Shown here: positions 29,905-59,632 of the stretch, piece by piece
Layout: every line of letters begins with the position of its first letter
Position numbering within the stretch: position 1 is the first letter of the stretch
From: Escherichia coli
Lineage (GTDB): Bacteria; Pseudomonadota; Gammaproteobacteria; Enterobacterales; Enterobacteriaceae
DNA length: 64,000 nucleotides
Reading direction: 5' to 3' (one strand)
Assembly: GCF_048403405.1 (NCBI RefSeq)
Contig: NZ_CP183129.1
Position numbers and translations under genes: made by a program
Notes under the pieces: model-generated
The model's input: the letters and a program-made list of their open reading frames with translations, nothing else
Told to the model about the DNA's origin: nothing
The model's database searches: none

Positions 29905-29907
29905 GCG

Positions 29908-31506
29908 TTAACGTAACGGCATAATGGGCGTGATATGTCCATTATGCCGGGCGGGCGGCGGTTGGCTGCCCGCCAGCCATTTGGGAAAATCACGTAGCGG
30001 CATCGGCTGTGCGTACAAATACCCTTGCAAAATATGCACGCCATGACGGCGCAAATACTTCGCCTGTTCTTGCGTTTCCACGCCCTCCGCCACCAGTTCA
30101 ATATTCAGTCTTTGCCCCAGTGCGATGATGATATCGGTCACCGTCGAGTTAACCGCGTCAGAACCTATAGCTGCGGTAAATGACTTATCAATTTTCAGCA
30201 CGTCAGGACGTAATGTTTCAAGCCAGGAAAATGAACTGTTGCCGGTGCCGAAGTCATCAATCGCCAGTTTGACGTTTTTACGATGCAGCTCGCGGGCAAT
30301 CCGATAATCAACATCCAGTAAGGCATCGCGTTCGGTGATTTCGAGGATCAGTTGCTGAATCGGGTGAGCGCTAAACCAGTACTGGTTGAGATCTTTTATC
30401 AGCACACCACGGCGAAAATGGCTGGGTGCGACGTTAATGCCAACATGAAACTGACTACTCATTGGGAAAACATGCCGCTGACGGATGGTTTCTGCCATCA
30501 CATAGCGGGTCAGTGGCACAATTAAATGATGTTCTTCCGCGATAGGAATAAACACATCCGGTGAAATCCAGCCCTGACGTGGATTGTTCCAGCGCAGCAA
30601 AATCTCTACACCAATACATTGCTGGCTGCGCGCATTAAGCAAAGGCTGGCAGAACAATTCGAACTCATGTTGCGCCAGGCCCAGATTGATTTCACGGGAA
30701 AAACTCATTCGGTAAGCGGTCGCCAGCCAGGCGATATAGCCCACAAGTAAACTTAGCAGCACCGCCAGCGGTAATTGTGTTGGAAGATAGTGCCATGCCA
30801 GCGCCGTAGCCCCCGGACCATTAACGTTAATGGTAAAAGGAAAGCGTTGCGAAGAAACCTGATAGTTTTCATTGTCTTCAGGTTGCGGAAGGGAATCTAC
30901 CAGCCCATTACCATAGAGCAAATGCCGATTGTCCACCGTCAGGCTGGCGCTACTGATTTGCGGCAGTTGTGGCTCAAGCAGCATTGCCGCCAGTAAGTCG
31001 ATGTTAATCATCTCCATGACCCCAGCATTGCTACTGCCCGCTGCTGGCGTCCATTGAATCAAAACCGGACTGCCTTTAATCAGGGCATGGTCGGTCGTCA
31101 GGCGTAAAAGTGGTTGCGGTGCAGGAAGTTCAGCCAGAATGTCCACGACGGGCACATTGCGATAACCAAAAATGCTGGAGCAATAAAGTGTGCCGTCTTG
31201 CACCAGGCCAATGGATCGCACAGTTTGGAGTTTTGCCGCCTGTTTACGTAATGGCAAATGGGCGACAGAGCAGGGCAGACCAATTAGCGGAAGTAAGACT
31301 TCGCTACCTGCCTGTAGGGGAAGCAGTACTTTATCTAATTCCTCTACAGCGTGATTGGCGAATTGTACTACCCGTTGTTGATTTAAGTTACGCTGTGAAA
31401 TAAATCGCACGCTCAGGGTCGAAGCGAGCGTAACGAGTGCGCAAATCGTACAAACAATCATTCGATTACGGCGATAGGTTTTAATGATCCGTTGTGCTTT
31501 TTGCAT
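29908..31506 (-). CDS. pdeD: c-di-GMP phosphodiesterase PdeD (CSS-domain EAL protein)
   Basis: ORF 29908-31536; start at Met11 gives 532 aa; EAL-domain motifs (EITER..., DDFGTG). Confidence 0.85.
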   Translation of the reverse strand: MQKAQRIIKTYRRNRMIVCTICALVTLASTLSVRFISQRNLNQQRVVQFANHAVEELDKVLLPLQAGSEVLLPLIGLPCSVAHLPLRKQAAKLQTVRSIGLVQDGTLYCSSIFGYRNVPVVDILAELPAPQPLLRLTTDHALIKGSPVLIQWTPAAGSSNAGVMEMINIDLLAAMLLEPQLPQISSASLTVDNRHLLYGNGLVDSLPQPEDNENYQVSSQRFPFTINVNGPGATALAWHYLPTQLPLAVLLSLLVGYIAWLATAYRMSFSREINLGLAQHEFELFCQPLLNARSQQCIGVEILLRWNNPRQGWISPDVFIPIAEEHHLIVPLTRYVMAETIRQRHVFPMSSQFHVGINVAPSHFRRGVLIKDLNQYWFSAHPIQQLILEITERDALLDVDYRIARELHRKNVKLAIDDFGTGNSSFSWLETLRPDVLKIDKSFTAAIGSDAVNSTVTDIIIALGQRLNIELVAEGVETQEQAKYLRRHGVHILQGYLYAQPMPLRDFPKWLAGSQPPPARHNGHITPIMPLR

Positions 31507-31636
31507 GCGGGCCACCCTGTAAGCGTATGGCGACAAACGCCTGACGCAACAGTGGAAGTGTAGTGGGGAAAATTACAGCAGACGAGAAAGCGGGGATAAA
31601 TTCGCCCATCCGTTGCAGATGGGCGAGTAAGAAGTA

Positions 31637-33001
31637 TTAGTCACACTGGACTTTGATTGCCAGACCACCGCGTGAGGTTTCGCGGTATTTAGCGTTCATG
31701 TCCTTACCGGTTTCATACATCGTTTCGATGACCTTATCCAGCGAGACGCGCGGTGCACTGGTGCGACGCAGGGCCATCCGCGCGGCGTTAATCGCCTTGA
31801 CTGACGCAATGGCATTACGCTCAATGCACGGCACCTGAACTTGCCCTGCAACAGGGTCACAGGTCAAACCGAGGTTGTGCTCCATGCCAATTTCCGCCGC
31901 CACACAAACCTGTTCCGGGCTACCGCCCAACAGCTCGGCAAGGCCCGCAGCAGCCATTGAACAGGCAACACCCACTTCGCCCTGGCAACCGACTTCCGCA
32001 CCGGAAATAGACGCGTTCATTTTATACAGTGCACCAATCGCGCCCGCTGCCATAAAGTAACGGGTATAGATGTCCGGGCTAACCGATTCAATAAAGTGGT
32101 CATAATAAGCCAGCACTGCCGGAACAATGCCACAAGCACCGTTGGTTGGCGCAGTTACCACACGACCACCGGCGGCGTTTTCTTCGTTAACTGCCAGCGC
32201 AAACATGTTTACCCAGTCAATGACATTCATCGGATCGTTAGACAGTTTATCGCTGGAAACTAACATCCGGCGCAGGGCCGACGCACGACGCGGCACGCGC
32301 AGCGGGCCTGGCAGTACGCCTTCGGTGTTCATCCCGCGATCGATACATGCCTGCATGGTTTGCCAGACATGAGCGAAATACTCGTCGATCTCTTTCTTGC
32401 TGTGCAGCGCCAGTTCGTTCTGCATAGCGAGACCAGACAGCGAATAGCCGGTTTCATTGCAGTACGCCAGCAGTTCGGTGGCAGATTTGAACGGATACGG
32501 CACGCTCACTTCGTTGGCGGCATCCTGACCAAAGTGTTCTTCATCGACGATAAAACCGCCGCCGATGGAATAATAAGTTTTGCTGTAGACGACTTCATCG
32601 CCGTTATAGGCGTGGATTTGCATACCGTTTTCATGCAGCGGCAGGTTGCCGTTATGAAAACGCATCCCGTTGTCGCGCGGGAAATCCACTTCATGCCGTC
32701 CCTGTGCCAGCAGCAGACGTTCGCGCTCTTCTACGTCGCGAATAAAACCGGGAATACTGTCGATATCCACGGTGGCAGGTTCGTTACCTGCAAGACCCAT
32801 AATAATGGCGATATCGGTGTGGTGGCCTTTACCCGTCAGCGACAGTGAACCATAAACGTCCACGGCAACGCGAGTAACGCTATCCAGTAAGCCTTTTTCG
32901 ACCAGATCATCGACGAACTGTTTACCCGCCTTCATAGGCCCTACGGTATGGGAAGATGAGGGACCAATCCCCACCTTAAACATGTCGAATAGACTAATCA
33001 C
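31637..33001 (-). CDS. sdaA: L-serine dehydratase 1 (Fe-S dependent)
   Basis: 454-aa ORF recognised as SdaA. Confidence 0.95.
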
Positions 33002-33763: not shown

Positions 33764-33766
33764 GTC

Positions 33767-35128: not shown

Positions 35129-35201
35129 CAGTCCTGACTCTACTGGCTATGTGCCGGGTAGCATGAAATAATTAGCGCCAACAATTTAGCAGGAGTTAAC
35201 A

Positions 35202-40114: not shown

Positions 40115-40186
40115 AATATTATGTTAACGGCATGTATATCATTTGGGGTTGCGATGACGACGAACACGCATTTTAGAGGTGAAGAA

Positions 40187-41871
40187 TTGAAGAAGGTTTG
40201 GCTTAACCGTTATCCCGCGGACGTTCCGACGGAGATCAACCCTGACCGTTATCAATCTCTGGTAGATATGTTTGAGCAGTCGGTCGCGCGCTATGCCGAT
40301 CAACCCGCGTTTGTGAATATGGGGGAGGTGATGACCTTCCGCAAACTGGAAGAACGCAGTCGCGCGTTTGCCGCTTATTTGCAACAAGGGTTGGGACTGA
40401 AGAAAGGCGATCGCGTTGCGTTGATGATGCCTAATTTATTGCAATATCCGGTGGCGCTGTTTGGCATTTTGCGTGCCGGGATGATCGTTGTAAACGTTAA
40501 CCCGTTGTATACCCCGCGTGAGCTTGAGCATCAGCTTAACGATAGCGGCGCATCGGCGATTGTTATCGTGTCTAACTTTGCCCACACTCTGGAAAAAGTG
40601 GTTGATAAAACCGCCGTTCAGCACGTAATTCTGACCCGTATGGGCGATCAGCTATCTACGGCAAAAGGCACGGTAGTCAATTTCGTTGTTAAATACATCA
40701 AGCGTCTGGTGCCGAAATACCATCTGCCAGATGCCATTTCATTTCGTAGCGCCCTGCACAACGGCTACCGGATGCAGTACGTCAAACCCGAACTGGTGCC
40801 GGAAGATTTAGCTTTCCTGCAATACACCGGCGGTACCACTGGTGTGGCGAAAGGCGCGATGCTGACTCACCGCAATATGCTGGCGAACCTGGAACAGGTT
40901 AACGCGACCTATGGTCCGCTGTTGCATCCGGGCAAAGAGCTGGTGGTGACGGCGCTGCCGCTGTATCACATTTTTGCCCTGACCATTAACTGCCTGCTGT
41001 TTATCGAACTGGGGGGCAGAACCTGCTTATCACTAATCCGCGCGATATTCCTGGGTTGGTAAAAGAGTTAGCGAAATATCCGTTTACCGCTATCACTGGC
41101 GTTAACACCTTGTTCAATGCGTTGCTGAACAATAAAGAGTTCCAGCAGCTGGATTTCTCCAGTCTGCATCTTTCCGCAGGCGGAGGGATGCCTGTTCAGC
41201 AAGTGGTGGCAGAACGTTGGGTGAAACTGACTGGACAGTATCTGCTGGAAGGTTATGGCCTGACCGAGTGTGCGCCGCTGGTCAGCGTTAACCCGTATGA
41301 TATTGATTATCATAGCGGTAGCATCGGTTTGCCGGTGCCATCGACGGAAGCCAAACTGGTGGATGACGACGACAACGAAGTACCACCGGGTCAACCGGGT
41401 GAGCTTTGTGTCAAAGGGCCGCAGGTGATGCTGGGTTACTGGCAGCGTCCGGATGCTACCGATGAAATCATCAAAAATGGCTGGTTACACACCGGCGACA
41501 TCGCGGTGATGGATGAAGAAGGATTCCTGCGTATTGTCGATCGCAAAAAAGACATGATTCTGGTTTCCGGTTTTAACGTCTATCCCAACGAGATTGAAGA
41601 TGTCGTCATGCAGCATCCTGGCGTACAGGAAGTCGCGGCTGTTGGCGTACCTTCCGGCTCCAGTGGTGAAGCGGTGAAAATCTTCGTAGTGAAAAAAGAT
41701 CCATCGCTTACCGAAGAGTCACTGGTGACTTTTTGCCGCCGTCAGCTCACGGGCTACAAAGTACCGAAGTTGGTGGAGTTTCGTGATGAGTTACCGAAAT
41801 CTAACGTCGGAAAAATTTTGCGACGAGAATTACGTGACGAAGCGCGCGGCAAAGTGGACAATAAAGCCTGA
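40187..41871 (+). pseudogene. fadD: Long-chain acyl-CoA synthetase FadD, interrupted by a -1 frameshift in a G6 run at 41011-41016 (premature stop at 41060-41062)
   Basis: Two ORFs (40121-41062 and 41056-41871) in different frames each encode a contiguous part of FadD (...[13 protein letters not shown] | [22 protein letters not shown]...); restoring one G rejoins them. TTG start at 40187. Confidence 0.85.
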
Positions 41872-41917
41872 GCGTTAAGTCAGTCGTCAGACGCCGGTTA
41901 ATCCGGCGTTTTTTTTG
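41830..41917 (+). ncRNA. sroD: sRNA SroD, derived from the fadD 3' end; boundaries approximate
   Basis: Established sRNA annotated at the fadD 3' end / fadD-rnd intergenic region in K-12, ending at the fadD terminator; placement from recalled annotation. Confidence 0.35.
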
Positions 41918-41918
41918 A
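41889..41918 (+). terminator. Rho-independent terminator of fadD
   Basis: ACGCCGG-ttaat-CCGGCGT followed by T8. Confidence 0.8.
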
Positions 41919-41940
41919 CGCCCACTAAAGAGAATACAAT

Positions 41941-43068: not shown

Positions 43069-43074
43069 AATCTT

Positions 43075-43117
43075 CCGAAGCCGGACTGGGCGCACTCAGC
43101 GCCACATCCGGCTTCGG
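43075..43117. terminator. Convergent intergenic stem-loop between rnd and yeaX (candidate bidirectional terminator, weak U-runs)
   Basis: CCGAAGCCGGA...TCCGGCTTCGG stem enclosing an inner GGCGC...GCGCC hairpin. Confidence 0.4.
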
Positions 43118-43121
43118 CAAA

Positions 43122-44087: not shown

Positions 44088-44142
44088 TGCTGTACTCCAT
44101 CAAAAATCAGCCCAGCGGCGGAAAATACCGCCGCCGATGTCA

Positions 44143-45267: not shown

Positions 45268-45298
45268 AGGGTTACCTTTATCGTTAGGATGATGGCGC

Positions 45299-46909: not shown

Positions 46910-47116
46910 GAGTCATCTCCTGGGCATAAAAGCCCGTCTCTGGCTTTTGCCAGTTGTAATTATTTGCAGGGTAATGAGTTGCATGTTGTGTTTAACAAAT
47001 TGATTATTTACATGTTACATAAATTAAACAATTAAGAATACGGAAAGCCATAAAACACGAAACGGAAACAATAAAAGGTGAAATGACGCAGGTTATTAAC
47101 TGCAAAGAACGAATAA

Positions 47117-47150
47117 AAAAACCGCGTCAGTGACGCGGTTCAAATAAACT
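47117..47150 (-). terminator. Rho-independent terminator of dmlA (yeaU)
   Basis: ACCGCGTCA-ctga-CGCGGT hairpin with a plus-strand A7 run (U-run on minus) just beyond the dmlA stop. Confidence 0.7.
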
Positions 47151-47159
47151 GGTTTGACC

Positions 47160-48245
47160 TTAACGCAAAATAATTTTGCAAATCGCGTCGGCAACCTGTG
47201 GCGTGGTGGCATTGCCTTTCATATCAGGTGTTTTCGGCCCGTGAGCAATCACTTCTTCAATCGCGGCCAGAATACCGTTATGCGCTTGCTGGAAACGCTC
47301 ATCGCCATTGCCGAGAAAATCGAGCATCATTGCACCGGCCCAAATTGTGGCGATAGGGTTAGCAATGTTTTTCCCGTAGATATCCGGCGCGGAACCGTGG
47401 ACTGGCTCGAAGAGCGACGGGAAAGTGCGTTCCGGATTCAGGTTGGCGGATGGGGCAATGCCAATGGTGCCGGTGCAGGCCGGGCCAAGATCGGAAAGGA
47501 TATCGCCAAACAAATTGGACGCCACTACCACATCGAAGCGTTCCGGCTGCATCACAAAACGCGCGCAGAGAATATCAATATGCTGCTTGTCCCAGCAGAT
47601 CTCCGGGTAATTCTCGGCCATTGCTTCCACTCGCTCATCCCAGTACGGCATGCTGATGGCTAAACCGTTCGATTTAGTGGCAGAAGTTAGCGTCTTACGT
47701 GGGCGGCTTTGCGCAAGTTCGAAGGCATAACGCAAAATGCGATCGACACCACGACGCGTAAATACCGATTCCTGAATGACGACTTCATGCTCTGTACCTT
47801 CATTCACTCTGCCGCCGAGCGAGGAATATTCGCCTTCGGTGTTTTCCCTGACCACGTAAAAATCGATGTCGCCAGGCTGTTTTCCCGCCAGCGGGCAGGG
47901 AACGCCAGGAAAGAGACGAACCGGGCGCAGGTTGACGTACTGGTCGAATTCACGACGAAATTTCAGCAGCGAACCCCACAACGAAATATGGTCCGGAACG
48001 GTGTCCGGCCAGCCGACGGCACCAAAATAGATGGCGTCGAAACGGCTAAGTTGCTCATGCCAGTCGTCCGGCATCATTTTACCGTGATGGCTGTAATACT
48101 CGCAGCTCGCCCACTCCATTTGCTCAAAACTCAAGGCGAAGCCCCAGCGCTCAGCGGCAGCCTGTAACACGCGAATCCCTTCAGGAAGGACTTCTTTGCC
48201 AATCCCGTCTCCCGGGATCGCAGCAATACGCATCGTTTTCATCAT
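47160..48245 (-). CDS. dmlA: D-malate dehydrogenase (decarboxylating) / tartrate dehydrogenase family
   Basis: 361-aa ORF, isocitrate/isopropylmalate dehydrogenase fold. Confidence 0.9.
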   Translation of the reverse strand: MMKTMRIAAIPGDGIGKEVLPEGIRVLQAAAERWGFALSFEQMEWASCEYYSHHGKMMPDDWHEQLSRFDAIYFGAVGWPDTVPDHISLWGSLLKFRREFDQYVNLRPVRLFPGVPCPLAGKQPGDIDFYVVRENTEGEYSSLGGRVNEGTEHEVVIQESVFTRRGVDRILRYAFELAQSRPRKTLTSATKSNGLAISMPYWDERVEAMAENYPEICWDKQHIDILCARFVMQPERFDVVVASNLFGDILSDLGPACTGTIGIAPSANLNPERTFPSLFEPVHGSAPDIYGKNIANPIATIWAGAMMLDFLGNGDERFQQAHNGILAAIEEVIAHGPKTPDMKGNATTPQVADAICKIILR

Positions 48246-48347
48246 TGGGTTCTCACTTCCTGACCATCAAAATTGACAACATCACCATCCTATAATTGAC
48301 TGAAAAGGAATTAATCCCTGTAACTGGTGAAACATAAAACACGAATC

Positions 48348-49271
48348 ATGAATAATTTACCGCTGCTGAACGATTTGCGCGTCTTTATGCTGGTGGCTCG
48401 CCGGGCTGGTTTTGCCGCCGTGGCGGAAGAACTGGGCGTTTCTCCAGCGTTCGTCAGCAAGCGCATCGCCTTGCTGGAGCAAACGCTAAACGTGGTGTTG
48501 TTACACCGCACCACCCGCCGTGTCACCATTACCGAAGAAGGAGAGCGGATTTATGAATGGGCGCAGCGGATTTTGCAGGATGTCGGTCAAATGATGGACG
48601 AACTTTCTGACGTGCGTCAGGTGCCGCAGGGGATGCTGCGTATTATCAGCAGCTTTGGTTTTGGACGACAGGTGGTGGCCCCGGCGTTATCAGCGCTGGC
48701 GAAGGCGTATCCGCAACTGGAATTACGTTTTGATGTGGAAGACCGGTTGGTCGATTTGGTCAATGAAGGTGTCGATCTCGATATTCGCATTGGCGATGAT
48801 ATCGCCCCTAATTTAATCGCCCGCAAACTGGCGACCAATTATCGCATTCTCTGCGCGTCACCGGAATTTATTGCGCAACATGGCGCGCCGAAACATTTAA
48901 CCGATCTTTCTGCATTGCCGTGCCTGGTCATTAAAGAGCGCGATCATCCTTTTGGTGTCTGGCAATTACGCAATAAAGAAGGCCACCATGCGATTAAAGT
49001 TACCGGCCCACTGTCGTCTAATCATGGAGAAATTGTCCATCAGTGGTGTCTTGATGGGCAGGGGATTGCTCTGCGCTCCTGGTGGGATGTTAGCGAAAAT
49101 ATTGCCAGTGGTCATTTAGTGCAGTTGCTACCGGAATATTACCAGCCAGCGAATGTCTGGGCCGTTTATGTTTCAAGGCTGGCGACGTCAGCGAAAGTGC
49201 GGATAACGGTAGAATTTTTACGCCAGTATTTTGCCGAGCACTACCCGAATTTTTCACTGGAGCATGCCTGA
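48348..49271 (+). CDS. dmlR: LysR-family regulator DmlR (YeaT), divergent from dmlA
   Basis: ORF 48327-49271; start at MNNLPLLNDLRVF... giving 307 aa; N-terminal HTH. Confidence 0.9.
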   Translation: MNNLPLLNDLRVFMLVARRAGFAAVAEELGVSPAFVSKRIALLEQTLNVVLLHRTTRRVTITEEGERIYEWAQRILQDVGQMMDELSDVRQVPQGMLRIISSFGFGRQVVAPALSALAKAYPQLELRFDVEDRLVDLVNEGVDLDIRIGDDIAPNLIARKLATNYRILCASPEFIAQHGAPKHLTDLSALPCLVIKERDHPFGVWQLRNKEGHHAIKVTGPLSSNHGEIVHQWCLDGQGIALRSWWDVSENIASGHLVQLLPEYYQPANVWAVYVSRLATSAKVRITVEFLRQYFAEHYPNFSLEHA

Positions 49272-49328
49272 TTAATGATTCAATTATCGGGTTGATATCG
49301 GGTTAAAACCTGATTTTCTCCTTTCTAA

Positions 49329-50036
<708 letters not shown>

Positions 50037-50208
50037 TGCTTTCAGCCCGCGTTGTCGCGGGCTTCCCATCTGTAATCCTCCCTGATTCTTCTCTGATATG
50101 GTGCTAAAAAGTAACCAATAAATGGTATTTAAAATGCAAATTATCAGGCGTACCCTGAAACGGCTGGAATAAACCATTTTCAGCGCATTCACCGAAGGAG
50201 GGAAAAGG

Positions 50209-50568
50209 ATGCTGCAAATCCCACAGAATTATATTCATACGCGCTCAACGCCTTTCTGGAATAAACAAACTGCGCCTGCCGGAATATTCGAGCGTCATCT
50301 TGATAAAGGAACGCGCCCGGGAGTTTACCCACGCCTTTCCGTTATGCATGGGGCGGTCAAATATCTCGGCTACCCTGATGAACACAGTGCAGAGCCTGAT
50401 CAGGTGATCCTTATCGAAGCGGGGCAGTTTGCGGTGTTCCCTCCAGAAAAGTGGCACAACATTGAAGCCATGACTGACGATACTTATTTCAACATTGACT
50501 TCTTCGTTGCCCCTGAAGTCCTGATGGAAGGTGCGCAACAACGGAAAGTCATTCATAACGGGAAATGA
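50209..50568 (+). CDS. yeaR: DUF1971 protein YeaR
   Basis: 119-aa ORF followed after 3 nt by yoaG. Confidence 0.85.
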   Translation: MLQIPQNYIHTRSTPFWNKQTAPAGIFERHLDKGTRPGVYPRLSVMHGAVKYLGYPDEHSAEPDQVILIEAGQFAVFPPEKWHNIEAMTDDTYFNIDFFVAPEVLMEGAQQRKVIHNGK

Positions 50569-50571
50569 ATC

Positions 50572-50754
50572 ATGGGCAAAGCAACGTATACCGTGACCGT
50601 CACCAATAACAGCAATGGCGTTTCTGTCGATTATGAAACAGAGACGCCGATGACTTTGCTGGTGCCAGAAGTGGCGGCTGAAGTGATAAAAGATCTGGTG
50701 AATACCGTGCGTTCTTATGACACGGAAAACGAACATGATGTTTGTGGTTGGTAA
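50572..50754 (+). CDS. yoaG: DUF1869 protein YoaG
   Basis: 60-aa ORF MGKATYTVTVTNNSNGVSVDYETETPMTLLVPEVAAEVIKDLVNTVRSYDTENEHDVCGW. Confidence 0.85.
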   Translation: MGKATYTVTVTNNSNGVSVDYETETPMTLLVPEVAAEVIKDLVNTVRSYDTENEHDVCGW

Positions 50755-50901
50755 TTATCACTGATCGTTGATGGCGCAATTTCTGCGCCATCGCAAAAAA
50801 ATCCTCCGTGATGCTCGTCACAAATCTTGCCCTCCCGATGTTGTGCTATGCTTTTTATCAGCGACTAACCCGCTAATGCAAAACAGATAAGTGAGGAAAC
50901 A

Positions 50902-51150
50902 ATGGGCATTCTGTCATGGATTATTTTTGGGCTTATTGCCGGTATTCTGGCGAAGTGGATCATGCCAGGTAAAGATGGTGGTGGATTCTTTATGACTATC
51001 CTGCTGGGGATAGTCGGTGCCGTAGTCGGCGGATGGATCAGCACGCTGTTTGGCTTTGGTAAAGTCGATGGCTTCAATTTTGGCAGCTTCGTGGTTGCCG
51101 TTATTGGCGCGATTGTCGTGCTGTTTATCTACAGAAAGATTAAAAGTTAA
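50902..51150 (+). CDS. yeaQ: GlsB/YeaQ/YmgE-family small membrane protein
   Basis: 82-aa Gly-rich ORF with two transmembrane helices. Confidence 0.9.
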   Translation: MGILSWIIFGLIAGILAKWIMPGKDGGGFFMTILLGIVGAVVGGWISTLFGFGKVDGFNFGSFVVAVIGAIVVLFIYRKIKS

Positions 51151-51208
51151 CGCGTAAATTGCACAAAGGCTGCACACAGGCAGCCTTTGCTATTTTCTAG
51201 ATGTGACG

Positions 51209-51283
51209 TTACCACCATCCCAGCTCAGTGCCGAGTACGACAATAATCGCCACACCCATCATAATAATCGTTGTTTTTTTCAT
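51209..51283 (-). CDS. yoaJ: Small membrane protein YoaJ (24 aa)
   Basis: Minus-strand ORF MKKTTIIMMGVAIIVVLGTELGWW. Confidence 0.6.
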   Translation of the reverse strand: MKKTTIIMMGVAIIVVLGTELGWW

Positions 51284-51285
51284 CT

Positions 51286-51384
51286 TTATGCTCCCGGGGC
51301 AGCATAGCCGCCAATAAAAAACCATGCTAAAAATACGACCGCTGTAATAAAGATTACAACCGGAAAAATAATACCGATTCGCAT
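51286..51384 (-). CDS. yoaK: Small membrane protein YoaK (32 aa)
   Basis: Minus-strand ORF MRIGIIFPVVIFITAVVFLAWFFIGGYAAPGA, adjacent to yoaJ. Confidence 0.6.
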   Translation of the reverse strand: MRIGIIFPVVIFITAVVFLAWFFIGGYAAPGA

Positions 51385-51416
51385 GTTATCACCAATCAAA
51401 AGGATGTGAATACGCC

Positions 51417-52442
51417 TCAGGAATGTAGCGCTGGATGCGCGACAAAAGGTGTTTTCTGTTTGCGTTTTTTCTCCTGATACATCGCGATATCGGCAGCATG
51501 CAGGGCACTGTCTGCATCGGTCGTTTCAGGATCGACTTCTACTATGCCAAGACTGGCACCGGGATAATACAAATCAACATCACCTAAGTGATATTCTCCG
51601 CATATTTGCTGCTGAATACGTTCTCGCAGAGACGAAATATCCGCATTCTCGTTGTTCAGTGAAACAACCAAAAACTCATCACCGCCGAGACGACCAATAA
51701 CTTCGCCATTTTGCTGGAGCGTATTAAGGCGCTCGCCAACCTGAATGAGGAACAAATCACCACTATTATGACCAAAACGATCGTTGATTAATTTGAAGTT
51801 ATCCAGATCGATAAACGCGATCATTATCTTATGGTTAAGATGTCGGGCGAGAGAAAACAGCGTCGTCAGGTTTTCAAAAATCGCCCGCCGATTCGGTAGC
51901 CCGGTTAACGAGTCGGTATACGATTGCGCAATCAGCGCAGCATTGGCTTCGCGCAGCTGTTCAACCAGTGCCTCTTTTTGAATATATTGTGCAATCAGTC
52001 CGGCGAATAACTGTAAAACCTGTTCCGCGCGTTCACTCCACTGGCGCTTCTCACTACTGGCGGCGCAAAGCGTGCCATAGAATGATCCATCCGGTAAGTG
52101 AATTGGCGTGCTCAGAAATGTGGTGATGCCAAGATTGCGTGCCGCAATACAGTCGCCCCAACGGTCAGGGACTTCATCGCTGAAAAAGCAGTTTTCATCA
52201 ATGGCGCGTTTGCATAACGAGTAATCCCACGAGACGGTAAAATTCTCCGGGATGTGCATTTTCTGGCTGTTACGGGCAAACATAATATGCTGCAGGCGCG
52301 CTTCGACATCCACTTTGGTCAGGTAGGTTGATTCCATATCAGTGACCATTTCCAGCATCTCCAGAAGCTGTCGGACCAGACTTTCCAGTGACTGTTCTTT
52401 GGCAAGGGATTGCGAGACGCGGGCGATAATCTGATCTGACAC
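51417..52442 (-). CDS. dgcP: Diguanylate cyclase DgcP (GAF-GGDEF)
   Basis: ORF 51417-52571; GTG start at 52442 gives 341 aa; GGDEF motif (RLGGDEF). Confidence 0.85.
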   Translation of the reverse strand: MSDQIIARVSQSLAKEQSLESLVRQLLEMLEMVTDMESTYLTKVDVEARLQHIMFARNSQKMHIPENFTVSWDYSLCKRAIDENCFFSDEVPDRWGDCIAARNLGITTFLSTPIHLPDGSFYGTLCAASSEKRQWSERAEQVLQLFAGLIAQYIQKEALVEQLREANAALIAQSYTDSLTGLPNRRAIFENLTTLFSLARHLNHKIMIAFIDLDNFKLINDRFGHNSGDLFLIQVGERLNTLQQNGEVIGRLGGDEFLVVSLNNENADISSLRERIQQQICGEYHLGDVDLYYPGASLGIVEVDPETTDADSALHAADIAMYQEKKRKQKTPFVAHPALHS

Positions 52443-52624
52443 GAAACAACTCCAGGATACGGCGGGTAAATGCTGATTATTTAATCTTTGCAGGCATGAT
52501 AAAACATCATCAACGAAGATGAAACAAGGCGTAATATGATTTGAGTGAATGTAATAAAAATAGTGCTGCAAAACAAAACGATACCGCGATACTCTAAGTC
52601 TGGATAAATATGTGAGATCAATAA

Positions 52625-52879
52625 ATGAAAATTATCAGTTTTGTTCTGCCTTGCTTGCTGGTCCTGGCTGGTTGTTCAACCCCTTCTCAGCCAGAAGCAC
52701 CCAAACCGCCGCAGATTGGTATGGCAAATCCGGCGTCGGTCTATTGCCAGCAGAAGGGCGGGACGCTCATTCCAGTGCAGACAGCGCAAGGGGTCAGCAA
52801 CAATTGCAAATTACCGGGCGGTGAAACGATTGATGAATGGGCATTGTGGCGACGGGACCATCCGGCTGGTGAAAAATAA
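52625..52879 (+). CDS. yoaF: Lipoprotein YoaF (DUF333)
   Basis: 84-aa ORF with lipobox LAGC. Confidence 0.85.
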   Translation: MKIISFVLPCLLVLAGCSTPSQPEAPKPPQIGMANPASVYCQQKGGTLIPVQTAQGVSNNCKLPGGETIDEWALWRRDHPAGEK

Positions 52880-52900
52880 CCGCCGGATGCTGTACTAAAA

Positions 52901-53248
52901 TCACAAGCTACGTAGCCAGTCGGCCAGCACCAGCGCATGGTTCTGCGTGGTGTTTTTTGCTGAGTAGAGCAGGGTCAGCGGCTGTTTTTTGGCGATGTCC
53001 GCCAGCCGCTTTCCTTCTTGCTCATGTTGCGCCAGTTCTGCAAGATATTGCTCGCGAAAGGTTGCAAAATCGACGACTTCGCCGTGAAAGGCTTTGCGCA
53101 GTTCCGTTGACGGCGTGATTTCTTTATCCCACTCATCAAGGGCTAAATCGGTTTTTTTGATACCACGCGGCCAGAGGCGGTCGACCAGTACGCGATAACC
53201 ATCGCTCTGTTCTGCCGGATCATAAACGCGTTTGCACTGAATATTCAT
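52901..53248 (-). CDS. yeaO: DUF488 protein YeaO
   Basis: ORF 52901-53269; start at MNIQCKRVYDP... giving 115 aa. Confidence 0.8.
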   Translation of the reverse strand: MNIQCKRVYDPAEQSDGYRVLVDRLWPRGIKKTDLALDEWDKEITPSTELRKAFHGEVVDFATFREQYLAELAQHEQEGKRLADIAKKQPLTLLYSAKNTTQNHALVLADWLRSL

Positions 53249-53302
53249 CGTGTTTGTTCTCCCTTCCACGCATGATTGGTCACGTCACTATAGCACCGGA
53301 TA

Positions 53303-54484
53303 TTAGCGAATTTCTTTGTCTCTCCCGGCGCAAAGTCCGAAAATCGCCATCAGTAGTGAAAGTATGGCAACACCCATCAATGGTATGGACCAGTCACCGT
53401 TAGTATCGTGTATTTTACCCATCAGCGGCGGCCCACAGGCTGCCAGCAAATACCCGACGGATTGTGCCATCCCCGAGAGTGCCGCCGCCTGATGCGCAGA
53501 ACTTGCCCGAAGACCAATGAACGTCAACCCCAGTATCATTGTTGCGCCGGAACCAAAACCGAAAAGCAGAGTCCAGGTGATCGCGTGCGCTGGCATAAAG
53601 CAGAGCCCAACCGCGCCCACTGCGCACATCAAGGCAACGAACGCTGCAACACCACGCTGATCTTTCACATGATGTAAGAAAAGTGGGATCAGCAAACCGG
53701 GAGCTGCTGTGGCTAGTTGCAGCAAACCATGCAGTGAACCCGCCTGTGCTTCGCTATAGCCGTGGCTGATGAGGATCGCCGGAAGCCAGCCAATAATCAC
53801 GTAATAGACCAGTGAGTTGATCCCAAGAAACAATGTTACCTGCCAGGCAAGCGGCGAACGCCAGATACCCCGAGTATGTAAGGCGCGTGAGGTACTCAAA
53901 TTTGCATGTTGTTGACTTCGCCACTGTGGCAGCCATAAAAAAAGAGCCAGCAGAGGAAAAGACATCAGCATGAGCAACGCGCCTTGCCAGCCAAAACCGT
54001 TCAAAGCCAGCGGCACGACCATAGCCGATCCCAGTGCCGCTGCAGCTCCCATTGTCAGGGAATATGCGCCGGTAAGTCTGGCGACGGAATGAGGGAAATC
54101 GCGTTTAATTAATCCTGGCAGTAAGACATTGCCTAATGCAATCCCACCGCCAATGACCGCTGTACCGCCAAATAAGAAGTAAGGCGAAGGGAGAGAGCGA
54201 ATTGCGATGCCAGCACAGATCAAAAGTAACGCGGCAAACAGGCTACGTTCCATACCAAAACGTCGCGCCACCGGGGCAGCCAGAGGTGAGATTAGCGCAA
54301 AGGCTAATAATGGCAGGGTGGTCAATAAGCCGGTTTGCGCCGTCGTCAGCGAGTAAGCGGAACGAATCGTATCCAGTAACGGTGCTGCGCCGGTAAAGGT
54401 GACGCGTAATGTTGTGGCAATCATTAAAATGCCAGCGATAAGGACAATCCTGTTTTTGCCGCTTAATGAAGTTGAACAGGTCAT
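53303..54484 (-). CDS. nimT: MFS transporter NimT (YeaN)
   Basis: 393-aa polytopic ORF divergent from the AraC-type regulator gene. Confidence 0.85.
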   Translation of the reverse strand: MTCSTSLSGKNRIVLIAGILMIATTLRVTFTGAAPLLDTIRSAYSLTTAQTGLLTTLPLLAFALISPLAAPVARRFGMERSLFAALLLICAGIAIRSLPSPYFLFGGTAVIGGGIALGNVLLPGLIKRDFPHSVARLTGAYSLTMGAAAALGSAMVVPLALNGFGWQGALLMLMSFPLLALFLWLPQWRSQQHANLSTSRALHTRGIWRSPLAWQVTLFLGINSLVYYVIIGWLPAILISHGYSEAQAGSLHGLLQLATAAPGLLIPLFLHHVKDQRGVAAFVALMCAVGAVGLCFMPAHAITWTLLFGFGSGATMILGLTFIGLRASSAHQAAALSGMAQSVGYLLAACGPPLMGKIHDTNGDWSIPLMGVAILSLLMAIFGLCAGRDKEIR

Positions 54485-54580
54485 ATGCTTCTCATTGTTA
54501 CAAACGAGGCTGTACCTTACCGTTTTTATTGTTATGTTGAATCAAGCTAAAATGACAAATTATCGCTAAATTCGGACAAA

Positions 54581-55402
54581 ATGATGCACAGGTTGAATCT
54601 CAATGGCTATGAACCCGACCGACACCATGAAGCCGCGGTCGCATTTTGTATTCACGCCGGAACGGATGAGTTAACCAGTCCTGTACATCAGCACCGCAAA
54701 GGACAGCTGATACTGGCGCTACATGGTGCAATTACCTGTACGGTGGAAAATGCTTTGTGGATGGTGCCACCGCAATATGCGGTTTGGATACCGGGCGGAG
54801 TGGAACATAGCAATCAAGTGACAGCTAACGCTGAACTCTGTTTTCTGTTTATCGAACCCAGCGCAGTGACAATGCCGACAACCTGTTGCACATTGAAAAT
54901 ATCGCCCTTATGCCGGGAATTAATTTTAACCCTGGCAAACAGGACGTCGACTCAGCGTGCTGAGCCGATGACCCGCAGATTAATTCAGGTCCTGTTTGAT
55001 GAACTCCCTCAGCAGCCACAACAACAGCTGCACCTACCCGTTTCTTCTCATCCTAAAATTCGCGCGATGGTGGAGATGATGGCGAAAGAGCCCGTCGAGT
55101 GGGGGTCATTGGGGCAATGGGCTCGCTTTTTTGCGATGAGTGAACGCAATCTTGCCCGACTGATAGTGAAAGAGACGGGGTTGAGTTTTCGCCAGTGGCG
55201 TCAGCAGTTACAGCTGATTATGGCGCTTCAGGGATTAGTGAAAGGCGATACTGTACAGAAAGTTGCTCATACGCTGGGGTATGATTCAACAACGGCCTTT
55301 ATTACTATGTTTAAGAAAGGCCTGGGGCAAACGCCAGGCCGATATATTGCGGGATTAACTACTGTTTCCCCACAATCAGCGAAACCAGACCCGCGGCAAT
55401 AA
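54581..55402 (+). CDS. nimR: AraC-family transcriptional regulator NimR (YeaM)
   Basis: 273-aa ORF with cupin-like N-terminus and C-terminal AraC HTH. Confidence 0.85.
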
Positions 55403-55805
55403 GCGGGCCAACCGGTACGCCGCGAAACAGCGCCACGCCCAAAACAGTGCCCACCAGCAGCCCGGCGACCAGTTGCGGCTGGCTGCCCATTAACGTCACG
55501 CCGCGCCCACCTAGCCAGGAGACAATAACGCCTACTGCAATTGCCACCAGCGATTTCCAGTTCAGAAACGAGTGAATCAGGGTTGAGGGCGGTAGCGTCC
55601 CGCTGGCGATGGGGGCCATAACGCCAATCGTCAGAATGATTATCCCGATACTTAGCCCCTGTTTTTCAATCCACGGGAAAAAGGTGCTTAACGGTGTGAC
55701 GCGGACAATGATTAACACCAGAATTGAAACGGCGACAGTGGTGTTATGACTGATAAAGCCCAGCGCAGCTAACCCGAGCAGGATCAGCAAAGTGACATCA
55801 AACAT
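55359..55805 (-). CDS. yeaL: UPF0756 inner membrane protein YeaL
   Basis: 148-aa hydrophobic ORF. Confidence 0.85.
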
Positions 55806-55974
55806 CGTGGTTTCCTTGCCAAAAAATAATAAGCCTGCTTACTTTACGCTTGCTGCAGGAAGGAAGTAGAAAATCTTTACGTTTTTTGCATAAAAAATCA
55901 GGCGAACTGTCATCAAACTGCAATTTGTGCACGCTAACAATAACGTGAAAACAGCTATCTCCCGGGGGCATACT

Positions 55975-56079
55975 ATGAACGATCAAATGTTCGTCGAGAC
56001 ACTGATTATCACGTCATCGTTTTTTGCCATTGCTGTTGTGCTGGTTTTGTCCGTTCTTCTTATCGAACGGACAGGCTAG
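55975..56079 (+). CDS. yoaI: Small membrane protein YoaI (34 aa)
   Basis: [37 protein letters not shown]. Confidence 0.6.
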
Positions 56080-56583
56080 TTACGCAGTGCGGCGGAAATT
56101 GACCAGTTCTGGTTGCGCAATGCGCAAATAATCCGCGGTTTTCAAAATAACGGATTTATCCAGCATGCCTGCATTGAAGGCGATTTCATCAAATCGTTCG
56201 AAGAGTAGGGGATCGGCAACCAGTTTGAGTTTTGGATGGAAGCTGAAAGGGGGGATCGCGCCGAAGACACAGCCTGTGAGTTCATCGACTTCCGCCGGGC
56301 TGGCCAACGAAGCGCGTAATCCGCCTATATGGCTGGCGAGTTGGCTCAGATCGGCCTGTTGATCGGCAGCGAGGATCGCCAGAACATGTTGATTTACACC
56401 ATTGCCTTTGACTTTACATACCAGTGCCTTAGCCCCCTGGCCTAAAGCGGTGCCACGAATTTCTGACACCGCTTCACATTTACCTACCGCTTCATGGGTA
56501 ACGACGCGGAAGTCAGCACCTTCTTGTGATAATAAAGCGATTAACCGCTGATGCGTCATGCTTCCTTTAGCCATTTCAGTCAT
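56080..56583 (-). CDS. yeaK: YbaK/ProX-type aminoacyl-tRNA deacylase YeaK
   Basis: 167-aa ORF in the conserved position. Confidence 0.85.
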   Translation of the reverse strand: MTEMAKGSMTHQRLIALLSQEGADFRVVTHEAVGKCEAVSEIRGTALGQGAKALVCKVKGNGVNQHVLAILAADQQADLSQLASHIGGLRASLASPAEVDELTGCVFGAIPPFSFHPKLKLVADPLLFERFDEIAFNAGMLDKSVILKTADYLRIAQPELVNFRRTA

Positions 56584-56625
56584 TTCATGCTCCTGAGATT
56601 ACAAGCAAACAACCACAGAAGGTTA

Positions 56626-57976
56626 TCATGAACGGCTGTTTTTGTTCTGCTTATTGACATATAAACGCTCATCGGAAGCTTTATACGCATCATGTAACGT
56701 ATCGTTTTCTTTCATCGCGTAAATACCGGAAGAGAAGCCGATCTCTTTCTGCGGCGCGATATGTTGCAGACGTTTTTCGATACGTTCAGGCAGTTGTGCT
56801 GCAATTTGCGGCGTCGAATCGACTAGAATGATGCAGAATTCATCGCCACCGAGTCGGATGGCATAATCACTTTTACGAATCGACTGTTTAATCGCCTGAG
56901 CTAATAACGTAATCGCTAAATCCCCCTCCTGATGACCGAGGGTGTCATTTATTTGCTTTAACTTGTCCATGTCAATTGCAATAAACATCACCGAAGAACC
57001 GGATTGCACCAGTTTTTGCAACCGCTGCTCCAGTTCAGGGGTTAAAATTTTGCGATTATACAGTCCTGTCATCGCATCACTAATATTTTCTCGCGACACA
57101 TTTTGGTATAAACGGAAGTGCATCCGCACCATATTCAGCAAAATTAACGCCGTCAAAATCCAGAACAGAACGCTTTTCCACGAAGACGTGATAAAGTAAA
57201 GAATATCAATGGATAACGAGACACGAATGCCGCCCGGTAAGTCATGGACGTAACTGACATACTGGAACAGATTATCTTCGCTCTGGTTGATGATAATGTC
57301 GCGCCCCGAATCGGTATCGGTTAGCGTGACATTGAGAAAACGCCAGAGGAGAGGGCGGTCATGAGTGTAAAAGATATTCCGCAGATTGTTTTTGTTAATA
57401 TCCAGCAGCACAATCCCTTTTAGCTGCCCTGCGACATATACCGGCGTCAGCAAACTCATCACGTTCTGTTTAGTACGCTGATCCTGGTAAATGCTCGATA
57501 AAACGGTACGCCCGGTAAATACCTTTTCAATATCTTTGCGATCGATGCCAATACTTCCTGACTGCAGGAAAGACCAGTTATTCATCGCAAAGTACTCAAC
57601 ATTAACCGGCTCATAAAAATAGACATAGCGGTCATTGAGATCGAGATAATAGTGAAATTTCTCGTCGGCCATCCCAAGACCTGAACCGTAATCATCCTGG
57701 TGGCGGTTGCCTTCCACTGCCTGATCAAAAGCGGGTAATAGTGCTGCAGCTTCCACAATTGTGTCGCAGTCAGTGGATGCGGTTTGTAGTGTGCCGCGTA
57801 AGCCAGGGTATTTATGGGCAGTCAGGTTTAAGCCATGGGTATTATTTGCAGACTCAAAAGCCTCGCAGATGGTGCGCCGCTGTTCTGGCGACAAGTTCAA
57901 AAATAAGGAAGGAAGATGTCAGCACAATGACACTTGCGGCGATAAAATGCCGGAGCATTCTATGGTGCAATTTCAT
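56626..57976 (-). pseudogene. dgcJ: Diguanylate cyclase DgcJ (YeaJ), disrupted: the N-terminal 30 codons are out of frame with the body, consistent with a ~140-bp internal deletion
   Basis: ATG at 57976 has a strong AAGGAG ribosome-binding site and encodes MKLHHRMLRHFIAASVIVLTSSFLIFELVA, then 11 out-of-frame codons and a stop at 57854. The GGDEF body (SPEQRR...RLGGDEF...) is in another frame with only an internal TTG at 57900. Confidence 0.65.
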
Positions 57977-58156
57977 GATAAATGGCACTCCTTCGGTTAG
58001 TGAAACGAGAAAACCAGATAAAGTTCGATTGCGGCCTGGCACAGGGGCGCTAATTATACTCATCTCTGCGCCGCTGGGGAGGGGAAATTTAGGGGTAATA
58101 GTAATAAATTGTATGCAAAAGCCACGCAAAAAGCATGGCTCTGAATATTTTTGCAC

Positions 58157-59632
58157 TTAAATATGATGAATAATCACTTTGTTGCCCCCCTCGCTTTTCG
58201 CTTCGCGTAAGGCTTTATCTGCTTCCGTCATGACAAGCGAGATATTACGTGTGTCACCCGTTGAAAAAACCGTGCCAATACTGATGGTCATTTGCTCAGG
58301 AACATCATATCTGTTACTAAAGCCGGTCAGGAGTTCGACATTTTTACGCATACGTTCCGCAATGATTTTTGCCTGGGCACTATTGAGTTCGGTAAATAGC
58401 AAGCCAAACACCTCACCCTCCAGTCGCGCTAAAATATCATCGGGGCGGATGCTTTGCTGGATAATATCGACAATTGAAACCAGCACTTTATCACCCACAC
58501 GATGTCCCCATTGGGCATTGATGCGTTTGAACTGATTAATATCAACCAGCATGACACAGAAGTCCTTAACAACAGGTCGCGACAATAATGACTCTACGCT
58601 GTTGAAAAAGTAGCGCCGATTATAAATATTGGTCAGCACATCATGAACTGCCAGTTTGCTGGAGAGTTGCAGTTCCTGAAAAATGTTATAAATCAGAAAA
58701 GACACAACAAACAGTTTACTGGAGACTTCAATCCCGCGACTGATATACCAGATGGTGTAATTATACTCATCCAGAGTTAGTAGAAGTAAGTTGCAGCATA
58801 GCGATGCCAGACATAATAATGCTATTAACGGCCATAGTTCGCTGGCTAATCGTGTACGCATGATAATAAAGAACAGTAAAAATGCCCACAGACAAACCAA
58901 TGTTTTTGTATAGTTGATTCCCCAGGTCGCAGTATGGTTGTCCGGACAGTAATCGACGACATACAAAGAATAGTCAGCGTTATAACTGCTCAGATTGTGT
59001 GCCAGAAGGGGAAAAACTAAAAAAGGAATCAGCGCCAGTAACAGAATGCCAGTTTTTTTCTTATTGTTGTCAAGGATGTTGTCTTTCCCATAACAAAAGA
59101 GCGCCAGCGAGGTTAAACAAATGAAACTGAGTTGGCGGAAAATATAGAAAATAGAAACATCATTCGACTTTGTCTGGATCAGTGTACTGCCGTTGATTGG
59201 TTTATGGATAATTACAATGGTTTCAACTAAATAGATAAGGCCACTTAAAAATGCAAGGCTTAAAATGAGTGTTGGTAAAATTTGTTTGTTAGTGAAATAC
59301 TTCATTAACATGAAAAGAAAAATGACGGCGTTAAGGAAAAACAAAGCCACAACAACCATCAGGTAATTCATCTGTGGGATGAGTTTTACATTCGTGTTTT
59401 CGTTATATAAGGTAGTAATGCAAAATAAAATTAACGTCAGCAATAAGCTGAAAATAAAAAAGCCTTGAGCTTTTAATTTTTGTGTACCCATAGAAGCCAT
59501 AAAAAGGAGAGCAATGTGAGTGCTGGATTTTATTGATGGCAGAGATATATAGTTTTGACCAGGATCAATTTTCGTTAACGATAAAAAATATTTAAAGAAT
59601 AACCCCAGGGAAACACGTGTTGACCGAATCAT
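58157..59632 (-). CDS. cdgI: GGDEF-domain membrane protein CdgI/DgcI (YeaI)
   Basis: 491-aa ORF with N-terminal multi-helix membrane domain and C-terminal GGDEF-like domain. Confidence 0.85.
   Translation of the reverse strand: MIRSTRVSLGLFFKYFLSLTKIDPGQNYISLPSIKSSTHIALLFMASMGTQKLKAQGFFIFSLLLTLILFCITTLYNENTNVKLIPQMNYLMVVVALFFLNAVIFLFMLMKYFTNKQILPTLILSLAFLSGLIYLVETIVIIHKPINGSTLIQTKSNDVSIFYIFRQLSFICLTSLALFCYGKDNILDNNKKKTGILLLALIPFLVFPLLAHNLSSYNADYSLYVVDYCPDNHTATWGINYTKTLVCLWAFLLFFIIMRTRLASELWPLIALLCLASLCCNLLLLTLDEYNYTIWYISRGIEVSSKLFVVSFLIYNIFQELQLSSKLAVHDVLTNIYNRRYFFNSVESLLSRPVVKDFCVMLVDINQFKRINAQWGHRVGDKVLVSIVDIIQQSIRPDDILARLEGEVFGLLFTELNSAQAKIIAERMRKNVELLTGFSNRYDVPEQMTISIGTVFSTGDTRNISLVMTEADKALREAKSEGGNKVIIHHI

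What the first reader, a model, noticed from the sequence alone, without database searches (positions are those of the whole stretch)
29908..59632. Four c-di-GMP turnover genes within 30 kb, one of them apparently inactivated
pdeD (EAL), dgcP (GAF-GGDEF), dgcJ (GGDEF) and cdgI (GGDEF-like) all lie in this window. With dgcJ disrupted, the local c-di-GMP signalling repertoire differs from the reference; such lineage-specific losses are known to alter biofilm and motility phenotypes.
Basis: partly seen in the sequence, partly recalled or inferred. Interest (0 to 1): 0.25.

Follow-up and report, generated by a model that had tools for sequence, protein, structure and literature searches.

The report
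Private 140-bp deletion kills dgcJ
This E. coli chromosome stretch carries the species' usual four c-di-GMP signalling genes, and one of them (dgcJ) has been knocked out by a small strain-private deletion, which most likely removes a phage-receptor sugar pathway's on-switch; this is an ordinary kind of gene loss.

Summary
The window is E. coli chromosome (ptrB to mipA). It carries pdeD (CSS-EAL), dgcP (GAF-GGDEF), dgcJ (GAPES1/dCache-GGDEF) and cdgI (MASE4 plus degenerate GGDEF) in the same order and spacing as K-12.

pdeD, dgcP and cdgI are full length with intact motifs; cdgI is degenerate (EGEVF), as it is in K-12.

dgcJ is broken by a 140-bp out-of-frame deletion between two 9-bp direct repeats (TGTCGCCAG). 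This leaves a 40-aa peptide containing only the first membrane helix. The repeats point to replication slippage rather than an assembly artefact.

The junction is absent from:
- 5,426 complete E. coli genomes (a positive control worked);
- JGI metagenome contigs.

The predicted remnant products are also absent from a 15-billion-protein collection. The nearest relatives have intact dgcJ, so the loss is strain-private, not lineage-wide.

The documented specific role of DgcJ is local activation of NfrB, which makes the phage N4 receptor glycan. The expected phenotype is therefore reduced N4-type phage sensitivity, not a curli or cellulose change.

Within this clone, amino-acid-changing or disruptive mutations are modestly enriched in the four genes (9 of 18, p≈0.0015, post hoc). 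Overall this is an ordinary pseudogenisation of a known gene, of low interest.

The parts
29908..31506 (-). pdeD (yoaD): CSS-domain EAL phosphodiesterase, 532 aa, intact
   Evidence: Pfam CSS-motif + EAL. Catalytic motifs are present and the domain aligns fully to the PA3825 EAL structure. It differs from K-12 by 4 aa, all in the periplasmic domain.
51417..52442 (-). dgcP (yeaP): GAF-GGDEF diguanylate cyclase, 341 aa, intact; carries private substitution H327R
   Evidence: Pfam GAF + GGDEF. GGDEF motif at residues 253-257. H327R is derived and private to the window, and the exact protein is not on record.
56626..57900 (-). dgcJ C-terminal remnant ORF (424 codons, corresponding to DgcJ residues 75-496). 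It holds GAPES1 model positions 45-274, TM2 and an intact GGDEF domain with I-site. It has no in-frame link to the native start.
   Evidence: The internal start codons lack a convincing Shine-Dalgarno sequence.
57853..57976 (-). dgcJ native start and truncated product: a 40-aa peptide (TM1 followed by 10 out-of-frame residues) and the stop codon
   Evidence: Translation. TM1 lies at about residues 8-31 by hydropathy.
57885..57893 (-). Deletion junction: the single retained copy of the 9-bp direct repeat TGTCGCCAG. The intact allele has two copies 140 bp apart (gene nt 84 and 224).
   Evidence: Alignment to strain 4621, diff against MS 69-1, repeat positions in K-12 and MS 69-1.
58157..59632 (-). 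cdgI (yeaI): MASE4 plus degenerate GGDEF (EGEVF, intact RPDD I-site), 491 aa, intact

Best explanation
The region is the normal E. coli core arrangement of four c-di-GMP genes. In this strain dgcJ has become a null allele.

How the deletion arose: slipped-strand or microhomology-mediated deletion between two 9-bp direct repeats removed 140 bp near the 5' end. Translation shifts frame after codon 31 and stops at codon 41. Only the first membrane helix is made.

What happens downstream:
- The periplasmic dCache/GAPES1 sensor, TM2 and the GGDEF domain are not translated from the native start.
- DgcJ normally sits next to the glycosyltransferase NfrB and feeds it c-di-GMP locally, so its loss should leave NfrB largely inactive.
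- The NfrB/NfrA-dependent surface glycan that N4-type phages use as first receptor would then be reduced.
- The cell would become less susceptible to those phages, with DgcQ providing residual backup.

Shown here: the deletion, its repeat-flanked structure, the frameshift, its absence elsewhere, and the integrity of the other three genes.

Inferred from the literature: the phenotype.

Inferred, not shown: that the strain has a working nfrBA operon, and that the deletion was selected rather than neutral.
For: Deletion structure:
- Deletion and repeat structure.
- Frameshift and 40-aa product.
- GAPES1 model positions 1-44 are lost from the remnant.

Absence elsewhere:
- Junction absent from 5,426 complete genomes, while the equivalent intact-allele 45-mer finds 645 genomes.
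- Junction absent from metagenome contigs.
- Remnant proteins absent from the protein collection.
- dgcJ is at least 80% covered in 5,372 of 5,426 genomes, so it is normally kept.

Literature on DgcJ:
- DgcJ is the one cyclase of 12 that is specifically required for N4 infection. It binds NfrB, and its catalytic activity is needed (PMC8669469).
- K-12 CGSC 7740 is N4-resistant because of dgcJ::IS1.
- Point mutants in the dCache ligand pocket phenocopy the null (PMC8669472).

nfrBA is at least 80% covered in 5,043 of 5,426 genomes.
Against: - The nfrBA locus lies outside the window, so its presence in this strain is only a 93% prior.
- N4-type phage pressure on this strain is unknown.
- The 424-codon remnant keeps an intact GGDEF domain, and Shigella DGC pseudogenes with upstream stops still make c-di-GMP from internal starts (PMC11327459).
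- The window also has a homopolymer frameshift in fadD (G7 to G6) and a SNP abutting a C-run. Sequence quality therefore cannot be vouched for without reads.
Confidence: 0.8

Rival explanations
1. The remnant ORF is still translated from an internal start (for example ATG at 57672 with a weak AGG 8 nt upstream, or TTG at 57900). It would yield an N-terminally truncated, sensor-less cyclase that still makes c-di-GMP, so the deletion rewires DgcJ rather than removing it.
For: The GGDEF domain, I-site and TM2 are intact in the 424-codon ORF. Shigella flexneri dgcE, dgcQ and dgcN, which have nonsense mutations upstream of the GGDEF domain, still raise c-di-GMP and are expressed as several proteins from internal starts (PMC11327459).
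Against: - No convincing Shine-Dalgarno sequence precedes any internal start.
- The product would lack TM1, so the sensor half-domain would be on the wrong side of the membrane.
- Single substitutions in the DgcJ dCache ligand pocket already phenocopy a deletion for N4 infection (PMC8669472).
Confidence: 0.08
2. The deletion is not in the living strain. It would be a sequencing, assembly or clone-stock artefact, and dgcJ is intact.
For: - No other genome or metagenome shows the junction.
- The window carries another private frameshift in a G7 homopolymer in fadD, and an A-to-C change abutting a C6 run. Both are typical of homopolymer miscalls.
- The private DgcP H327R protein is not on record anywhere.
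Against: - The deletion is bounded exactly by a 9-bp direct repeat with one copy retained. A random 140-bp gap would show this by chance with probability of about 4e-6. This is the signature of replication slippage in cells.
- Assemblers do not collapse 9-bp repeats.
- There is only one indel elsewhere in 64 kb.
Confidence: 0.1
3. The loss is one symptom of clone-wide selection, diversifying or relaxed, on these sensor c-di-GMP genes. It would not be a neutral one-off.
For: The comparison used ten genomes of the clone (CFSAN061763 only for the ~20 kb covering MS 69-1 coordinates 39900-60379) and set aside one recombination tract.
- 9 of 27 mutational events fall in the four genes, which make up 15.5% of the 36 kb (p=0.017).
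- 9 of 18 amino-acid-changing or disruptive events fall in them (p=0.0015).
- All nine events are non-synonymous or disruptive, against 9:5 non-synonymous to synonymous elsewhere.

A sub-lineage (CFSAN061763, E1, MLI106K3) carries a frameshifted dgcP.

According to a paper citing Povolotsky and Hengge 2016 (PMC5635171), YeaJ, YeaP and YoaD are not among the GGDEF/EAL proteins conserved in all 61 genomes surveyed.
Against: - The test is post hoc, on few events, without a proper phylogeny.
- The Fisher test of non-synonymous to synonymous counts is only p=0.06.
- yeaV, which is unrelated to c-di-GMP, also has three non-synonymous events.
- Relaxed constraint and positive selection cannot be told apart here.
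Confidence: 0.3

Closest known systems
E. coli K-12 dgcJ (yeaJ, b1786) and the cdgI-dgcJ...dgcP...pdeD core arrangement
   Same: Same gene order and the same ~29.6-kb span. The relatives' DgcJ differs from K-12 by 2 aa. Same domain architectures.
   Different: Here 140 bp (gene nt 84-223) are missing and the gene is frameshifted. There is one extra private substitution, E151D.
dgcJ::IS1 in E. coli K-12 MG1655 variant CGSC 7740 (Sellner et al. 2021, PMC8669472)
   Same: A spontaneous null allele of dgcJ in an otherwise normal strain. It was shown to cause N4 phage resistance, which restoring dgcJ reverses.
   Different: That allele is an IS1 insertion in a laboratory stock. This one is a repeat-mediated 140-bp deletion in a non-K-12 background whose closest complete genomes are mostly human isolates. 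Its phenotype is untested.
Degenerate or truncated DGC genes of Shigella flexneri (PMC11327459) and IS1-rearranged dgcJ/cdgI in E. coli Iso00041
   Same: Natural loss of dgcJ. In S. flexneri, dgcJ has truncating deletions. In the chronic-wound isolate Iso00041, dgcJ and cdgI fragments are flanked by IS1.
   Different: The Shigella deletions remove the GGDEF domain. Here the GGDEF-coding part is preserved but cut off from its start codon.
RecA-independent deletion between short direct repeats (replication slippage; established knowledge, not tested here)
   Same: Exact loss of one repeat copy plus the intervening sequence between 9-bp repeats 140 bp apart.
   Different: Nothing unusual. The same repeat pair exists in K-12, yet no other sampled genome has undergone the deletion.

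Membership tests
Active GGDEF diguanylate cyclase (DgcJ) | Intact GG(D/E)EF A-site and the DxD...KxxND substrate and metal motifs | tested here: met
   GGDEF, IDMDKLKQIND and the RKSD I-site are present in the remnant ORF. Pfam GGDEF E=2.6e-40.
Active GGDEF diguanylate cyclase (DgcJ) | Uninterrupted reading frame from the native start through sensor, TM2 and GGDEF | tested here: not met
   The 140-bp deletion shifts the frame after codon 31 and a stop follows at codon 41.
Active GGDEF diguanylate cyclase (DgcP) | Full-length GAF + GGDEF with an intact A-site | tested here: met
   341 aa, GGDEF at 253-257, IDLDNFKLIND present. It differs from K-12 by 3 aa, none in these motifs.
Active EAL phosphodiesterase (PdeD) | E(A/I/V)L, N, E(I/L)TE, DDFGTG, KxD, EGVE and QG catalytic and metal-binding motifs | tested here: met
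   EIL at 301, EITE, DDFGTG at 417, KID, EGVE at 474 and QGY are all present. Full-length alignment to the PA3825 EAL structure, E=7e-56.
CSS-domain PDE subfamily (PdeD) | Periplasmic CSS-motif domain between two TM helices | tested here: met
   Pfam PF12792 E=5.6e-43, residues 43-240. The sequence contains the 'YCSS' motif.
Degenerate GGDEF c-di-GMP binding protein (CdgI) | A-site not GG(D/E)EF, with the RxxD I-site retained | tested here: met
   EGEVF with RPDD five residues upstream. DIN and INA replace DxD and IND. Actual c-di-GMP binding is not testable here.
DgcJ-NfrB local signalling module (N4 glycan receptor pathway) | Presence of nfrB/nfrA in the same genome and physical DgcJ-NfrB interaction | not testable with these tools
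   nfrBA lies outside the window. It is at least 80% covered in 5,043 of 5,426 complete genomes. The interaction is shown only in K-12 (PMC8669469).

The most novel reading that the evidence does not exclude
The 424-codon dgcJ remnant is still translated from an internal start, as shown for Shigella dgcE, dgcQ and dgcN pseudogenes. It would give a cyclase stripped of TM1 and part of its sensor. The deletion would then convert a ligand-gated, NfrB-coupled local c-di-GMP source into an unregulated or mislocalised one, rather than abolishing it.
Probability: 0.08. Interest if true: 0.45.

Novelty: new member of a known kind. Interest (0 to 1): 0.17.

Why it matters
The finding matters only modestly. 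It adds one more natural null allele of a gene whose loss is already known to protect E. coli from N4-type phages. It also shows the allele is private to one strain and does not mark a lineage.

For phage-therapy host-range prediction, the state of dgcJ, and of dgcP in the sibling sub-lineage, is a cheap genomic marker worth checking.

The post hoc hint is that amino-acid-changing and disruptive mutations pile up in these four sensor genes within a single clone. If that holds on hundreds of genomes, it would support the view that c-di-GMP input modules are among the fastest-tuned parts of the E. coli core genome.

Tried and rejected
Identifying the source strain:
- No complete RefSeq genome matches the junction.
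- None shares any of the four private differences in window 40900-57850.
- The exact remnant proteins and the private DgcP H327R protein are not on record.
- UMN026 (NC_011751.1) is absent from the collection while IAI39 is present. This is circumstantial only, so I make no claim about the source.

Other dead ends:
- Junction 33-mer in JGI metagenome contigs: no hit.
- Povolotsky and Hengge 2016 could not be read. Its content is cited only second-hand, via PMC5635171.
- Terminator and promoter scan between dgcJ and yeaK found nothing above chance, so polarity on yeaK is undetermined.
- Recent tandem duplication as the cause of the cdgI-dgcJ adjacency is rejected, because the GGDEF domains are only ~29% identical and the sensor domains differ.
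- A shared fadD frameshift in CFSAN061763 is rejected. The equal alignment length was instead due to a dgcP 1-bp deletion in that strain.
- OW967178 and NRZ14408 were dropped from the event count because they are recombinant across most of the region, with about 365 differences.
Full report
**Where the window comes from**

The window is E. coli chromosome, running from an ISEc46 copy and ptrB to mipA. Megablast of 29908-50000 hits 5,425 of 5,426 complete RefSeq E. coli genomes. The closest are MS 69-1, TUM1226, OX030728, 4621, GN02461 and TUM14771.

Against MS 69-1 the whole 64 kb differs by only seven changes:
- five SNPs;
- one 1-bp deletion;
- one 140-bp deletion.

**The observation**

The four named genes are all on the minus strand at the stated places:
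- pdeD, 29908-31506: CSS-motif + EAL;
- dgcP, 51417-52442: GAF + GGDEF;
- dgcJ remnant, 56626-57976: GAPES1 + GGDEF;
- cdgI, 58157-59632: MASE4 + GGDEF.

K-12 MG1655 has the same genes in the same order over the same 29.6 kb. The cluster is therefore a species-level core feature.

Placing 29 GGDEF/EAL genes (the K-12 number, from my own knowledge) at random on 4.64 Mb puts four within such a span in about 2% of simulations. The clustering is mildly non-random. It is not explained by recent duplication, because the three GGDEF domains are 29-31% identical and the sensor domains differ.

**Active sites**

| Protein | Motifs found | Reading |
|---|---|---|
| PdeD | EIL, EITE, DDFGTG, KID, EGVE, QGY; aligns over its whole EAL domain with the solved PA3825 EAL domain (E=7e-56) | intact |
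| DgcP | GGDEF, IDLDNFKLIND; no RxxD I-site | intact |
| DgcJ | RKSD + GGDEF | motifs intact |
| CdgI | EGEVF with RPDD retained; DIN/INA instead of DxD/IND | degenerate, as in K-12 |

PdeD, DgcP and CdgI are full length. They differ from K-12 by 4, 3 and 6 residues respectively, none in these motifs.

**The dgcJ lesion**

Alignment with strain 4621 and the diff against MS 69-1 show exactly 140 bp missing.

In the intact allele of both K-12 and MS 69-1, TGTCGCCAG occurs at gene nucleotides 84 and 224. The window keeps a single copy, at 57885-57893.

The native ATG at 57976 now reads MKLHHRMLRHFIAASVIVLTSSFLIFELVA followed by ten out-of-frame residues and a stop. That product is the first membrane helix only (hydropathy).

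The remaining 424-codon ORF (56626-57900) corresponds to DgcJ residues 75-496. It matches GAPES1 model positions 45-274 and a complete GGDEF domain. None of its possible internal starts has a convincing Shine-Dalgarno sequence.

A random deletion would be bounded by a 9-bp repeat with probability of about 4e-6. The structure is therefore the standard footprint of slippage between short direct repeats (established knowledge), not of mis-assembly.

**How widespread the deletion is**

A 45-mer across the junction finds nothing in 5,426 complete genomes. The equivalent 45-mer across the intact left repeat finds 645 genomes at 99% identity or better, so the search design works.

Other searches were also negative:
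- A 33-mer junction pattern finds nothing in JGI metagenome contigs.
- The 40-aa peptide and five plausible remnant products are absent from a 15-billion-protein collection.

Intact dgcJ is at least 80% covered in 5,372 of 5,426 genomes, so the gene is normally retained.

Other natural disruptions do exist:
- an IS1-mediated rearrangement of dgcJ and cdgI in the chronic-wound isolate Iso00041;
- dgcJ::IS1 in K-12 CGSC 7740 (PMC8669472);
- truncating deletions in Shigella flexneri (PMC11327459).

All ten close relatives examined have intact dgcJ. All seven differences from MS 69-1 are derived in the window, judged against MS 69-1, 4621, CFSAN061763 and K-12 where those loci cover the site. The four in window 40900-57850 are also unmatched in the complete genomes.

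The allele is therefore strain-private.

**What the loss most likely does**

Two 2021 mBio papers bear on this.

PMC8669469:
- Of the 12 K-12 cyclases, DgcJ is the one specifically required for phage N4 infection.
- It co-purifies with the c-di-GMP-activated glycosyltransferase NfrB.
- Its catalytic activity is needed.

PMC8669472:
- It acts as a local source of c-di-GMP, independent of the global pool.
- dCache pocket substitutions Y210F, D212N and D239N phenocopy the deletion.
- DgcQ is a partial backup.

Motility is affected only in a pdeH background. The expected consequence here is therefore loss of NfrB activation and reduced sensitivity to N4-type phages.

This step is inferred. nfrBA lies outside the window, although it is at least 80% covered in 5,043 of 5,426 genomes.

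**Rivals**

1. Internal initiation giving a truncated but active cyclase has a real precedent in Shigella dgcE, dgcQ and dgcN (PMC11327459). Here it is disfavoured by the missing TM1, the weak start contexts, and the sensitivity of DgcJ function to its sensor. I give it about 8%.
2. A sequencing artefact cannot be excluded without reads. The window also has a G7-to-G6 frameshift in fadD and a SNP abutting a C-run. The repeat-bounded structure argues against it. I give it about 10%.

**Context within the clone**

I compared the 36-kb region in ten genomes of the clone, with CFSAN061763 covering only about 20 kb of it. One yoaE-pdeD recombination tract (33 clustered sites) was set aside. That leaves 27 mutational events.

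| Measure | In the four c-di-GMP genes (15.5% of the 36 kb) | Test |
|---|---|---|
| All events | 9 of 27 | binomial p=0.017 |
| Amino-acid-changing or disruptive events | 9 of 18 | p=0.0015 |
| Non-synonymous : synonymous | 9:0, against 9:5 elsewhere | Fisher p=0.06 |

The nine events in the four genes include:
- a 1-bp dgcP frameshift shared by CFSAN061763, E1 and MLI106K3;
- PdeD G299V next to the EIL motif in YZLc1-3;
- DgcJ G295D in 4621.

The test is post hoc and small. It agrees with published statements that many E. coli c-di-GMP turnover genes vary between strains (PMC5635171, citing Povolotsky and Hengge 2016, which I could not read).

**Verdict**

This is an ordinary, strain-private pseudogenisation of a well-studied gene by a textbook mechanism, inside a conserved gene arrangement.

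Its most useful reading is as a candidate phage-resistance allele. Interest is low.

Noticed in passing
window 41005-41011 (fadD, 40187-41871, + strand): A G7 run is G6 here, which frameshifts fadD (long-chain acyl-CoA ligase) after about codon 275. The ORFs split at 40121-41062 and 41056-41871. The change is private to the window. It could be real homopolymer slippage or a sequencing miscall.
   Followed up: partly
MS 69-1 coordinate 51636 (window ~51635, dgcP) in L005, L011, L012: Sibling genomes CFSAN061763, MLI106K3 and E1 share a 1-bp deletion that frameshifts dgcP, annotated as a pseudogene. A sub-lineage of the same clone has therefore lost a different cyclase of this cluster.
   Followed up: partly
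window 28581-31590 (yoaE-pdeD): Thirty-three clustered differences separate the window, MS 69-1, 4621, TUM14771 and GN02461 from Br_167, E1, MLI106K3 and YZLc1-3. This looks like a recombination tract covering yoaE and pdeD. It accounts for the four PdeD periplasmic-domain differences from K-12.
   Followed up: partly
window 28001-64000 versus nine relatives (L001, L003, L005, L009-L013, L015): Within-clone mutational events are enriched in pdeD, dgcP, dgcJ and cdgI (9 of 27 events; 9 of 18 amino-acid-changing or disruptive events; none synonymous). yeaV also has three independent non-synonymous changes.
   Followed up: partly
window 544, 18886, 46590, 51463, 57664: There are five private derived SNPs, four of them non-synonymous: YebQ P258S, YeaV V107G, DgcP H327R and DgcJ E151D. 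The yeaV change turns AACCCCCC into ACCCCCCC, a pattern that can also arise from homopolymer miscalling.
   Followed up: partly
window 1-937: The window starts inside an IS200/IS605-family element (ISEc46: tnpB fragment and tnpA), as annotated in MS 69-1.
   Followed up: no
L008 (E. coli Iso00041, NZ_CP095155.1 934545-942952): In this chronic-wound isolate, fragments of dgcJ and cdgI sit between two IS1 copies at a different chromosomal location, next to the ETT2/yqe genes. This indicates an IS1-mediated rearrangement of the locus.
   Followed up: no
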